A stretch of DNA of 64,000 nt. Source: Octopus vulgaris (Eukaryota). Below the pieces are notes generated by a model that saw only the letters and a program-made list of their open reading frames with translations, searched no databases and was not told the origin of the DNA. Made by a program: the position numbers and the translations under genes. The DNA lies in NCBI GenBank assembly GCA_951406725.2, contig OX597829.1, positions 57,350,001 through 57,414,000 on the forward strand. Reading direction: 5' to 3'. Each line of letters opens with the position of its first letter. Within the stretch, counting starts at the first letter, position 1. Shown here piece after piece: positions 19,462-60,740 of this stretch.

Positions 19462-19747
19462 TACTAATATAGGGTGAAATTAATTAATTTGGAATAATCA
19501 TTAATTTCACCAAGTAGATTTCGGCATGTAAAAACCTCATTCGAGGAAAGTTTAAGTAATACTAAGTAATTAAGGGTTAAGCAACGATTTGCCTCACCAC
19601 ACACCGAATTTAGAAATAGCAGTCAAAGAGTTATAGCTATTCTTTCTACTAAAAGGGAGATCTCAGTAAAACACAGCACTTGAAAGGCAAACACAGACAG
19701 GCAAGAGAGAAAGAAATGACGGCAATCTATCATACAATTTTAAGTCA

Positions 19748-19838
19748 CCTACGGACGTACGTTTCGAAATTAAGTTTTAGGAAAGCATAAGAATTAGATA
19801 ATTATGTCTTACCCAACTTCTTTTCTCATCAGCGTAGG
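19748..19838 (-). ncRNA. Type-I hammerhead ribozyme, intact core, extended stem II (family D)
   Basis: Minus: cctacg | CTGATGA | gaaa..aagtt..cataa...ttatg..aactt..tttc (60 nt) | GAAA | cgtacg | TC | cgtagg. Perfect 6-bp stem I, palindromic stem III acgtacgt, GUC site. Confidence 0.88.
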
Positions 19839-20584
19839 ACACTACAATTATGAATAATTGTATATTAAATTTCGAGGTACTAGAAGACATCATCTCAACT
19901 CAGTATCAGAGCGAGCTAAAGCCGTTACCAGTATCACCAAATTCAAAGTGTGAATGAAAGTTTGTCACCAACCCCCTCCCACCAGCGTGCAGCCAAGACA
20001 AGATGCTGTGGTCATTTACTGGGATGAAATGAACTCGCCTTTTCAAGAACACGAATTTTTTATATTTGACTCTATTGAATATATGTCACAATTATGAACT
20101 ACTACATCATACTCTTTAAACATATAGCATGAACTCTCTTTATTATATATAATTTTTTTTGATAAGGTTCTTCATTTCAAGAACCGAAGCATGTTAAAAA
20201 TTAAAATTTGTCTAATATAGCAGCATTTTCAAACTTCATTTTATATATATATATATATATGGATATATATATATATGTATATGTATATGTATATATGTAT
20301 ATGGATTTGTAGTGGACTGTCGGTTGTGGTTGAATATCTTCATAGTGTTTTGTTCATTTGTTCTAATATTTTTACATCTTTCTTTAATTTATGGGGCTGA
20401 AATATTTCTTACTTTCCATTAGTAAATAATTTTCGCCATTATATCATTTTTATATATATTGATAGTTATAAGTTACGATAGATATTAATTATTGGTGCAG
20501 ATGGGGCAGATGAGGGCAGCTGCATCGAACTCTTTCATGCACCAAAAGGCAATTGCTAAAAAGCATTCGTGAAGTAAAATCATG

Positions 20585-57560: not shown

Positions 57561-58059
57561 CTTCTGAATTGTGATGACAATATGGAAGCCCACAATGCAA
57601 TAAAGGTTTGTGCTAAACTGGGCAAAAATGCTGCAGAAACTTGTGGAATGCTCCAGCTCCTACCAAACCGTGGGTTTGTATTTCTTTAGTCTCAGGATTA
57701 TCCTTCTGACAGATCTCATTATGGTCTGAATAGAACATCATGTGGGGTGGGGGTGGGGATACACATCTGTGTTCATTAGTGTGTTTTCTTTCTTTTATGT
57801 TTTGGTTAAATTCTTGGGACATCTATTTGTATGCATGCAGTGTGTGTAGGGGTACAATATATGGAGGGGGCATTATACTAGGGATGGTTGCAGAAAATGG
57901 TCTATTAGTTGCATGTTTGCTGTGTTAAGGTATGTGCATTTGTGAGTGTATTTGTGTATGTTCTGGCCAAATTCTTTGCTAGATTCCTAGGTGTTGGTGG
58001 AAGAAGGGCCAAAGCTGGGGGACTGGTAATTATAGTCTTGATGGGCATGCAGGTATGAT

Positions 58060-58400
58060 AGGATGTACTTCCTTTCAAGTGGGCATGGATTAAAAATTTC
58101 ACTTCTGCAGTTCAGGTTGATGCCTGTGTGCTGGGAGCTCTTTAATGTCACTCTTTTCTCAGTCAGGCATCATCTGCGCATCATCTGCGCCGCCATTGAA
58201 GTATGCTTTACATTTCTCTAGAATCATCCACTTTATGCTGTGATCAGTGCTGCTTTCTTTCAAAGACCATACATGCTTGGCCAAGATTGTAATGCTACGT
58301 CCCTCTGGGATATTGAAGGAGGACTTGTGGTTGTTATAGTGAGTTCTGAAGGGACCTTCAGTTGCTCCCACATACTTTTGCCCATTTGGTTGCCCGTTTG
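58060..58400 (-). mobile_element. Penelope-like GIY-YIG endonuclease remnant (third PLE family)
   Basis: KYVGATEGPFRTHYNNHKSSF...LAKHVWSLKE...IKWMILEK.KAY, then CLTEK...LNCRSEIF..C after a frameshift. Confidence 0.8.
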
Positions 58401-58590
58401 GTTCTATTGCTGATATCTCTGCCTCCATAAATCCTCTAAAGCTTTCCAACATAAACTTGTAGTAGACATCCATAGATTTAGATCTTCTGATAGAACCCTT
58501 CTATTCACTGGTAAGACTAAGTCCACCCCTGAGACAGAAGCAGGATGGTCATGTGGGGCTAACACAACATGTCCACTGAATGTATATATA

Positions 58591-58846
58591 TATATATCTG
58601 TAAATGTAATATGTAACAATTATTTGGTAGCCATGTTAAAACTCTGAGTTTCGGATGCCAAGGTGGAAATCCACACTACCATCTCTTCAGTTATCCGGCC
58701 ATCAAAAAAATGCTATGAGGGACATTTTCCATAGCATTTTGCTGATGGCCAGATAACTGAGGAGATGGCATGGATTTCCACCTCAGCATCTGAAACTCAG
58801 AGTTTTAACATGGCTACCGAATAATTGTTACATATTACATTTACAG

Positions 58847-58855
<9 letters not shown>
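58591..58855. mobile_element. ~260-bp foldback element with two outward-facing hammerhead motifs (family I)
   Basis: Arms ~58591-58717 and ~58730-58855 are near reverse complements. HHRs at 58637-58693 (-) and 58754-58807 (+). Flanked by (TA)n. Confidence 0.85.
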
Positions 58856-58921
<66 letters not shown>

Positions 58922-59063: not shown

Positions 59064-59604
59064 ATTGTTAAAGAGCACAATAAACACAAAGGCAAGACAC
59101 ACTTCTCAAGTCATATACGTTATTATAACTGGAGAAATTTTAATGTCTTACAATTGTTTCTGAGTTATCCCAAAATATAGGATATTCTGTCAATGGAGAC
59201 AAATAAGGAAAATGTGAGGGGTATCGATTAAGGAAACAACGACATGGAGGGATGGAGAAAAGGAATAAAGAAAAGAATCCTATAATCATACATGGATTTA
59301 CGTAGGACTACACCTAAGGACTTATGGACTAACATCTACAATATTGGAATATTGAATTGTGAACTTTTATGCCCTTCTTTCTTCTTTTTCCACTTTTACT
59401 TATTTCATTTTCTCCAGTTCCCCTTGTCATCATTTCCTTAATCTGCACCCTTCACAGTTTCCCTATTTCTCTCCAATGATAGAATATCCCATATTTTGCA
59501 ATATCCCAGAAACAGCTGTAAGACTTCAAAATTTTCCAGTAATGATAACATATATGACTTGAGATGTTTGTATTGCCTTCAGGTTTTATTGTTATCTTTA
59601 ACAA
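59064..59604. mobile_element. Older foldback element related to family A, with degenerate hammerheads in both arms
   Basis: Right arm tct | CCAATGA | ...tatccca | GAAA | cagctg | TA | aga (~59470-59523). Left arm mirror at ~59146-59200 with stem III caattg. Confidence 0.75.
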
Positions 59605-60134: not shown

Positions 60135-60325
60135 GTGGCACGTAAAAAGCACCCACTACACTCACGGAGTGGTTGGCGTTAGGAAGGGCATCCAGCCGTA
60201 GAAACACTGCCAGATCAGACTGGAGCCTGGTGCAGCCTTCTGGCTTGCCAGACCCCAGTTGAACCATCCAACCCATGCCAGCATGGAAAACAGACGTTAA
60301 ACGATGATGATGATGATGATGATGA
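60135..60325 (+). mobile_element. RTE-tail repeat with (GAT)n
   Basis: gtggcacgtaaaaagcacccactacactc...gacgttaaacgatgatgat. Confidence 0.82.
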
Positions 60326-60437
60326 ATAGTGCCAGTGCAACGAAGAACAATTTGTTGTTAATAATAAACAGTTATTAACTACCTAATCTCTATTTTCTTT
60401 TCTTCTTTTAAATGAATAAAAACTATATGCTATATAT

Positions 60438-60740
60438 CATCATCATCATCATCATTATCGTTTAACGTCTGTTTTCCATGCTGGCATGGGTTGGACGGTT
60501 CGACCGGAGTCTGGGAAGCCAGGAGGCTGCACCAGGCTCCAATCTGATCTGGCAGTGTTTCCACAGCTGGATGCCCTTCCTGACGTCAACCACTCCGTGA
60601 GTGGAGTGGGCGCTTTTTACATGCCAAGCAAGGCTGGCAACAGCGATGATCGGTTGGTGCTTTTTACATGCCACCAGCATGGAGGCCAGCACTGGCAACA
60701 GCCACATTTGGATAGGTGGAACTGGCAACGGCCACATTCT
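60438..60740 (-). mobile_element. RTE-tail repeat with (GAT)n, opposite orientation
   Basis: Reverse complement of the 60135-60325 family. Confidence 0.82.

What the first reader, a model, noticed from the sequence alone, without database searches (positions are those of the whole stretch)
58591..58855. Minimal double-hammerhead foldback: 260 bp with one ribozyme on each strand
Seen: near-perfect inverted arms around a ~12-nt centre. Each arm has taa-CUGA(A/G)GA-gatg...catc-N-GAAA-ctcagag-UU-tta pointing outward. Either transcript contains one sense HHR and its antisense, so the long hairpin competes with ribozyme folding. There is one extra nucleotide before GAAA, and stem III is an odd palindrome. 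Inference: this is either a PLE inversion product reduced to two pLTR ends or a self-regulating hairpin-versus-ribozyme mobile unit that would be mis-annotated as a MITE.
Basis: partly seen in the sequence, partly recalled or inferred. Interest (0 to 1): 0.7.

Follow-up and report, generated by a model that had tools for sequence, protein, structure and literature searches.

The report
Back-to-back ends of Penelope retrotransposon
This 250-base hairpin is two short end pieces of a common Penelope-type jumping gene lying head to head, likely pasted in one insertion event; each carries a decayed hammerhead RNA motif that the hairpin is predicted to keep from folding, so it is an ordinary insertion remnant rather than a new mobile unit.

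Summary
The inverted repeat (58598-58846, arms 87% alike) and one hammerhead motif per strand are real. The arm is the end repeat (pLTR) of a Penelope-like retrotransposon with Hydra-clade protein motifs. Elsewhere in the genome the same arm follows an RT/GIY-YIG fragment and precedes the ORF start, and a young sister family has open 717-codon frames. Head-to-head pairs are common (37 of 68 loci). Their centres differ (74 of 74 junction keys distinct), and this copy's centre occurs once in the genome. So the hairpin arises per insertion and does not move as a unit. Most pairs carry a 68-nt tail on one arm only (67 of 75); this copy has none. Opposite-strand hammerhead pairs, the palindromic helix III and inverted truncated copies are already in print. 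One detail was not found in the papers searched: in the young family the two arms stop at nearly the same template position (22 of 39 within 25 nt; 6 expected) and pile up just upstream of the hammerhead. That suggests one RNA copied twice, and explains the 'minimal double hammerhead' size. The scan noted two-start, back-to-back Penelope-type insertions before, on other DNA of this genome. Cleavage is untested.

The parts
58583..58597 (.). (TA)n left flank, the likely target microsatellite; no target-site duplication can be read
   Evidence: sequence; (TA)n is the listed target of Hydra PLEs
58598..58717 (-). Left arm: 5'-truncated PLE pLTR, parent positions -188 to about -68, no tail
   Evidence: 88-93% identical to the pLTR in RT/EN-linked copies L122, L124, L207; 84% to the young family L155
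58635..58695 (-). Type I hammerhead motif of the left arm: core CUGAAGA/GAAA, extended helix II intact, one extra C at the base of helix II, palindromic helix III, one mismatch in helix I
   Evidence: constrained fold -5.1 against -13.7 kcal/mol free
58717..58719 (.). 5'-to-5' junction of the two arms, unique to this locus
58719..58846 (+). Right arm: 5'-truncated PLE pLTR, parent positions -197 to about -68, no tail
   Evidence: 84-88% identical to the pLTR of L122, L124, L207; 81% to L155
58752..58809 (+). Type I hammerhead motif of the right arm: core CUGAGGA/GAAA, 3-nt deletion in the helix II extension, same helix I mismatch; predicted cut after 58804 if it were active
   Evidence: constrained fold +2.5 against -12.8 kcal/mol free
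58847..58921 (.). (AT)n then (AC)n right flank
   Evidence: sequence

Best explanation
The element is two 5'-truncated end repeats (pLTRs) of a Hydra-type Penelope-like retrotransposon lying head to head in a TA microsatellite, likely made in a single insertion in which the element's enzyme nicked both target strands and copied one RNA twice. Shown: the arm is this PLE's pLTR; such pairs are common; centres vary; arms end at two fixed points 62-68 nt apart; the two arms of a locus share variants more than chance. Inferred: target-primed reverse transcription from both strands, run-off or stalling just upstream of the hammerhead, and joining of the two cDNA ends by microhomology or end-joining. 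This copy lacks the tail on both arms, either because both strands started at the inner site, or because the tail was later deleted between TA-like ends. The hammerheads are passengers of the pLTR and are predicted to be locked in the hairpin. Confidence in PLE origin with per-insertion inversion is about 0.93; in two-strand priming on one RNA as the route, about 0.6.
For: Arm + 68-nt tail follows an RT/EN fragment and a 1.2-kb UTR in L122-L124 and precedes the 5' UTR and ORF start in L207, L211, L219. A sister family (about 80% identical pLTR) has 717-codon open frames with RWK, DKT, CxCX5C, CxxC and CxH motifs and a 2589-nt unit, the Hydra diagnostics of PMC8557442. 37 of 68 loci picked by an arm motif, in genome order, have a head-to-head partner. 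67 of 75 pairs have the tail on one arm only. Junction keys: 74 of 74 distinct. This centre: 1 hit genome-wide. Variants shared by both arms at non-CpG sites: 96 against 21 on average in 500 shuffled pairings, maximum 36. Young family: 42 of 62 loci have an adjacent inverted partner; 36 of those partners end at the inner site, 34 of them at exactly -62. PAc cleaves and extends both target strands and starts RT at two sites that bound the tail (PMC11167929).
Against: This copy has no tail on either arm, a minority class (7 of 75 by script, 2 of which show a partial tail on inspection), which fold-back self-priming explains as easily. 31 of 68 old-family loci have no inverted partner within 1.5 kb. 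Only about 20% of arm variants are shared, so partial conversion between arms is not excluded. In the old family the matching of 5' ends is weak (26 of 48 within 25 nt against 22 expected, p=0.09; 10 of 15, p=0.02 in the tail-selected subset). One pair has two tails (L117), two loci share nearly the same centre, and one tail-motif pair on opposite strands was not inspected. No intact ORF of the old family itself was seen.
Confidence: 0.88

Rival explanations
1. Same PLE origin, but the second arm is made by self-priming: one nascent strand folds back at a short palindrome and copies itself, as proposed for head-to-head PLE inversions by Arkhipova et al. 2013. This is a rival route only; it overlaps with the best explanation on origin.
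For: It predicts matched 5' ends and shared variants. Many junctions overlap by 1-11 nt (21 of 53 in sets B and C). It fits this tail-less, symmetric copy well. Proposed in PMC3846280 (passages).
Against: A fold-back copy of a cDNA cannot reach further upstream than that cDNA, nor gain a tail it lacks. In tail+short pairs the short arm reaches further upstream in 13 of 36 young pairs (9 by 10 nt or more) and in 33 of 48 old pairs. The antisense-template version of the model was not tested.
Confidence: 0.3
2. A non-autonomous foldback unit, MITE-like or RNA-borne, that moves whole and uses hairpin-versus-ribozyme competition to regulate itself.
For: Thousands of look-alikes (3309 first-look candidates; all 40 scored were full foldbacks). 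L005 and L008 share a centre; L100 and L101 have similar ATGCAT centres.
Against: The ranking selects for foldbacks of this size. Arm-selected loci show continuous variation in arm length and centre. Termini are asymmetric in 67 of 75 pairs. This centre is unique; the L005/L008 centre has only 2 hits. The hairpin wins by 80-86 kcal/mol.
Confidence: 0.04
3. A single pLTR insertion turned into a palindrome afterwards by DNA repair or replication template switching, with arms kept alike by conversion.
For: Shared variants between arms; TA microsatellite flanks are break-prone (general knowledge).
Against: Post-insertion duplication would not stop at a fixed element position, yet 34 of 42 young partners end at exactly -62, and copies about 99% identical to the source already have the structure.
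Confidence: 0.04

Closest known systems
Hydra-clade PLEs, nearest Hydra-1_Obim of Octopus bimaculoides (Craig et al. 2021, PMC8557442; passages, section 11, supplement sheets and printed sequence starts seen)
   Same: RWK, DKT, CxCX5C, CxxC/CxH motifs, C-terminal EN, unit under 3 kb, (TA)n target. The paper's Fig. 2 legend describes an inverted 5'-truncated copy and a tail at one end only. Helix III palindromes actc-a-gagt (Penelope-3_HM) and actc-g-gagt (Hydra-2_aMil, Penelope-16_HM) match this copy and its family.
   Different: A distinct family: protein clearly related to Hydra-1_Obim by eye but not the same, and a different hammerhead. The tail is 62-68 nt rather than 30-40. The old family has a 1.2-kb 3' UTR. 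The single extra base lies on the 3' side of helix II; I saw no such row in the paper's HHR table.
Minimal type I hammerheads of metazoan PLEs (Cervera and de la Pena 2014, PMC4209133; parts 1-2 of 4 read)
   Same: Short helix I, long helix II, palindromic helix III, location in pLTRs. The paper reports dual min-HHRs 100-700 bp apart on opposite strands, and low or no cleavage of monomers in vitro.
   Different: Their unpaired base is between positions 9 and 10.1 (5' side); here it is on the 3' side. They did not analyse junctions.
Poseidon_Ac (PAc) in vitro mechanism (Frangieh et al. 2024, PMC11167929; parts 1-2 of 4 and passages read)
   Same: Two RT start sites bounding the tail, AT-rich target, both target strands cut and extended, HHR cleavage not needed for insertion.
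   Different: Different clade. In PAc the HHR overlaps the ORF start; here the ORF starts about 110 nt after the tail. The passages seen do not describe head-to-head products or matched 5' ends.
Non-LTR retrozymes (Li, Clavereau and Pollet 2026, 10.64898/2026.07.22.740005; part 1 of 5 read)
   Same: Non-coding, HHR-bearing, PLE-derived.
   Different: Retrozymes are head-to-tail tandem units; this is a head-to-head pair of truncated ends of a coding element.

Membership tests
EN+ Penelope-like element | pLTR contiguous with an RT + GIY-YIG ORF | tested here: met
   Met through relatives, not at this locus: L122-L124, L207/L211/L219, L150-L159. Pfam gave no hit on two decayed fragments; domain calls rest on motifs and on the printed Hydra sequences.
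EN+ Penelope-like element | Inverted 5'-truncated copy adjoining the insertion | tested here: met
   37 of 68 old-family loci; 42 of 62 young-family loci
EN+ Penelope-like element | Optional tail at one end only | tested here: met
   67 of 75 pairs; absent from both arms of this copy
Hydra clade | RWK and DKT motifs, CxCX5C linker, CxxC and CxH motifs, no CCHH | tested here: met
   Motifs found in the young-family ORF against section 11 of PMC8557442; absence of CCHH judged by eye; old-family fragments are 60-85% identical to that ORF
Hydra clade | Unit under 3 kb and insertion into (TA)n | tested here: met
   2589-nt unit in the young family and TA flanks; the old family is longer because of its UTR
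Hydra clade | Placement in an RT phylogeny | not tested
   No tree was built; the reference proteins were only seen in part in the supplement text
Type I hammerhead ribozyme | Core CUGANGA / GAAA / UH with helices I-III | tested here: met
   Family helix I is 5 bp; this copy has one mismatch in both arms. Rfam gave no hammerhead hit at E up to 5.
Type I hammerhead ribozyme | Core and stems conserved under selection | tested here: inconclusive
   Variants shared by both arms: 1 in 679 core site-pairs, 0 in 470 helix II, 43 in 933 helix II extension, 24 in 2375 downstream. Few independent lineage events, and set B was selected on part of the motif.
Type I hammerhead ribozyme | Self-cleavage | not testable with these tools
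   Needs an assay. 5' ends do not pile up at the predicted cut site: 5 of 106, 4 of 99.
MITE / TIR DNA transposon | Fixed symmetric termini and a fixed internal sequence | tested here: not met
   Asymmetric tail in 67 of 75 pairs; 74 distinct junction keys
MITE / TIR DNA transposon | Autonomous partner encodes a transposase | tested here: not met
   The linked ORF is RT-EN. No TIR library was available for direct comparison.
MITE / TIR DNA transposon | Target-site duplication | tested here: inconclusive
   Unreadable in (TA)n
Non-LTR retrozyme | Head-to-tail tandem monomers, one HHR each | tested here: not met
   Head-to-head pair; the one tandem fetched (L061) repeats flanking DNA with the arm

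The most novel reading that the evidence does not exclude
Hydra PLE enzymes copy one 5'-trimmed RNA from both target strands, and the hammerhead fold (with bound protein) serves as the 5' boundary of the protected template rather than as a cutter. The 250-330 bp double-hammerhead hairpin is then the minimal footprint of the RNP, stamped thousands of times into the genome, and the matched 5' ends read out the template's 5' end directly.
Probability: 0.3. Interest if true: 0.6.

Novelty: new member of a known kind. Interest (0 to 1): 0.28.

Why it matters
The locus itself is a decayed insertion. The family matters modestly in two ways. First, thousands of such hairpins look like MITEs but are retrotransposon ends, which affects repeat annotation, and they would be double-stranded RNA substrates if transcribed (inference). 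Second, the young sister family offers open frames and over 1200 exact tail-motif matches, whose matched 5' ends and pile-up beside the hammerhead give a way to test how PLE inversions form and what PLE hammerheads do; the papers read here call both questions unresolved.

Tried and rejected
Rfam scan: no hammerhead hit, only sub-threshold hairpin families. Pfam on two ORF fragments: no hit. Cap-derived extra G at a start site near -197: rejected; 9 G, 8 A, 36 T of 53 matches, and about 3 independent G junctions against 3 A among 30 loci read. HHR-cut RNA as template: no pile-up at the cut site. Continuation past the tail in 30 loci chosen for a non-T next base: none, all ran into microsatellite; the continuation was found another way. 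Divergent Hydra elements for covariation: 4 metagenome loci and 20 loci of an older family gave no hit with my descriptor. Expression: no RNA holder listed; contigs laid came from runs guessed to be RNA or of unknown kind and are not used as evidence; no contig bridged this copy's centre. Literature searches for PLE twin priming or matched 5' ends and for PLEs misclassified as MITEs listed no paper on this point; the library lacks most subscription papers, and the supplements of PMC11167929, PMC4209133 and PMC3846280 were not read and may bear on it. Look-ups of earlier notes by sequence and by words found nothing.

Full report
Observation. The sequence between two TA microsatellites, 58598-58846, is an inverted repeat with 87% complementary arms; it folds at -182 kcal/mol against -52 +/- 5 for 100 shuffles. 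Each arm holds an outward-pointing type I hammerhead motif: helix I GATAA/TTAAC, core CTGA(A/G)GA, helix II GATG/CATC, one extra base, GAAA, CTCAGAG, then TT. The arms differ at 22 positions and 4 gaps, so this is not a read-foldback artefact of assembly (inference). Rfam did not detect the motif. There is no separate centre: the arms abut, and the right arm reaches 9 nt further upstream in the parent.

Family. The unit gave 3309 first-look candidates, of which 40 were scored; a 34-nt arm motif has 352 exact matches and its reversed control none. Of the 21 distinct loci read, most carry an extra 68-nt tail on one arm. Walking upstream from unpaired arms led through a 1.2-kb UTR to RT and GIY-YIG-type fragments (L122-L124). 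In L207, L211 and L219 the arm and tail run on into a 5' UTR and the ORF start. The arm is therefore the pLTR of a Penelope-like element. A protein search found a young sister family with 717-codon open frames and a pLTR about 80% identical. Its ORF has RWK, DKT, CxCX5C, CxxC and CxH motifs, and its 2589-nt unit sits in (TA)n; these are the Hydra-clade diagnostics of Craig et al. 2021 (PMC8557442). No tree was built.

Does the hairpin move whole? To avoid selecting for foldbacks I took loci by the arm motif in genome order: 70 fetched from the first 78 of 352 matches, skipping second matches of one locus and one tandem, with 2 more dropped as the same insertion. 37 of 68 had a head-to-head partner, with arm lengths and gaps varying continuously. 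Across three sets, 75 pairs: 67 with a tail on one arm, 7 with none by script (L005 and L017 show a partial tail on inspection), 1 with two. After dropping one duplicated locus (L096), all 74 junction keys were distinct, although L005/L008 share nearly the same centre, which has only those 2 hits. This copy's centre has 1 hit in the genome with one mismatch allowed. The inversion is made per insertion.

How. The two arms of a locus share non-CpG variants 96 times against 21 expected from 500 shuffled pairings (maximum 36); rare variants 25 against 2.5 (80 pairs including the L096 duplicate). This copy shares a rare T>A in helix I in both arms. That points to one template per insertion, though 389 differences are single-arm and partial conversion is not excluded. 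In the young family I examined 62 loci (70 fetched, 8 dropped as parts of tandem arrays; 40 of the 70 were hand-picked avoiding arrays and known long copies, which biases towards short insertions). 42 had an adjacent inverted partner, 15 none, and 5 were cut by the locus end. 36 partners ended at the inner site, 34 at exactly -62. The two 5' ends lay within 25 nt of each other in 22 of 39 pairs (6 expected, never reached in 20000 permutations; rho 0.87), at lengths from 90 to 1360 nt. 27 of 99 ends fell between -160 and -200, just upstream of helix I at -161, and 10 of 62 loci were minimal double-hammerhead foldbacks like this one. In the old family the match of 5' ends is weaker (26 of 48, p=0.09; 10 of 15, p=0.02), because nearly all ends crowd into the same zone. 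Ends do not gather at the predicted cut site (5 of 106, 4 of 99).

Mechanism. Frangieh et al. 2024 (PMC11167929) showed that a PLE protein cuts and extends both target strands and starts at two RNA sites bounding the tail, without needing hammerhead cleavage. The simplest reading is that both strands of the TA target prime cDNA on one RNA, both run off or stall at the same point, and the two ends are joined, often through 1-11 nt overlaps (21 of 53). All of these steps are inferred. The rival is self-priming (PMC3846280). It also predicts matched ends and suits this tail-less copy, but it struggles with pairs where the tail-less arm reaches further upstream (13 of 36 young, 33 of 48 old).

The ribozymes. 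The family motif can form the hammerhead fold at -13.0 against -16.9 kcal/mol free. This copy's left arm gives -5.1 against -13.7, and its right arm, with a 3-nt deletion, +2.5 against -12.8. In a full transcript the fold costs 80-86 kcal/mol against the hairpin, and the antisense arm is transcribed first. This is silencing, not a switch (prediction). Source-level variants avoid the core and helix II and fall in the helix II extension as wobble or mismatch changes, but they represent few independent events and the set was partly selected on the motif, so selection is not shown.

What is known. Cervera and de la Pena 2014 (PMC4209133) describe these minimal hammerheads, the palindromic helix III, and pairs 100-700 bp apart on opposite strands. 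Craig et al. describe the inverted truncated copy, the one-sided tail, an octopus Hydra family, and helix III sequences identical to those here. The extra base on the 3' side of helix II is a small variant that I did not see in their table. Earlier notes of this scan report two-start, back-to-back PLE-type insertions for other elements in this genome; I saw them after forming my reading and do not count them as support. Matched 5' ends and the pile-up beside the hammerhead were not found in the papers listed; unread supplements may bear on this.

Verdict. A real but ordinary remnant: a new family of a known clade in a known insertion geometry. Interest 0.28, carried by the junction statistics of the young family rather than by this locus.

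Noticed in passing
window 58053-58425 (-) and about 58470-58580 (+): Remnant of an older Hydra-type element just left of the foldback: an EN fragment on the minus strand (36-42% identity to the young ORF) and, by eye, RT and linker fragments on the plus strand; itself apparently rearranged. A large family in the genome.
   Followed up: partly
window 19745-19840 (-): Another hammerhead motif with a CTGATGA core, a long helix II loop, helix I CCTACG/CGTAGG and a palindromic helix III.
   Followed up: no
window 59082-59586 and 60136-60626: Two more inverted pairs, with arms of 140 nt (79%) and 190 nt (92%). The second looks like two copies of a common interspersed repeat ending in (GAT)n.
   Followed up: no
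L150-L163, e.g. G000:C28:13990000-13999000: Young Hydra-type family with 717-codon open frames, tandem arrays of 2.59 kb and 1205 exact tail-motif matches; its hammerhead core reads CCGAAGA (U4C) with U before GAAA.
   Followed up: partly
L048, L205, L208, L216: Inverted pairs whose centre holds about 250 nt of the element's own 5' UTR and ORF start joined to a pLTR, suggesting template jumps or internally deleted RNAs.
   Followed up: no
L058, L038, L093 flanks: A different short repeat with a hammerhead-like motif ending GAAACTCAGAGTAACAG, also in (TA)n and often next to this family.
   Followed up: no
L247 (metagenome contig): Complete Hydra-type PLE, 45% identical, with two pLTRs and a hammerhead-like CTGAAGA...GAAACACTGTGTA motif that my descriptor missed.
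   Followed up: no
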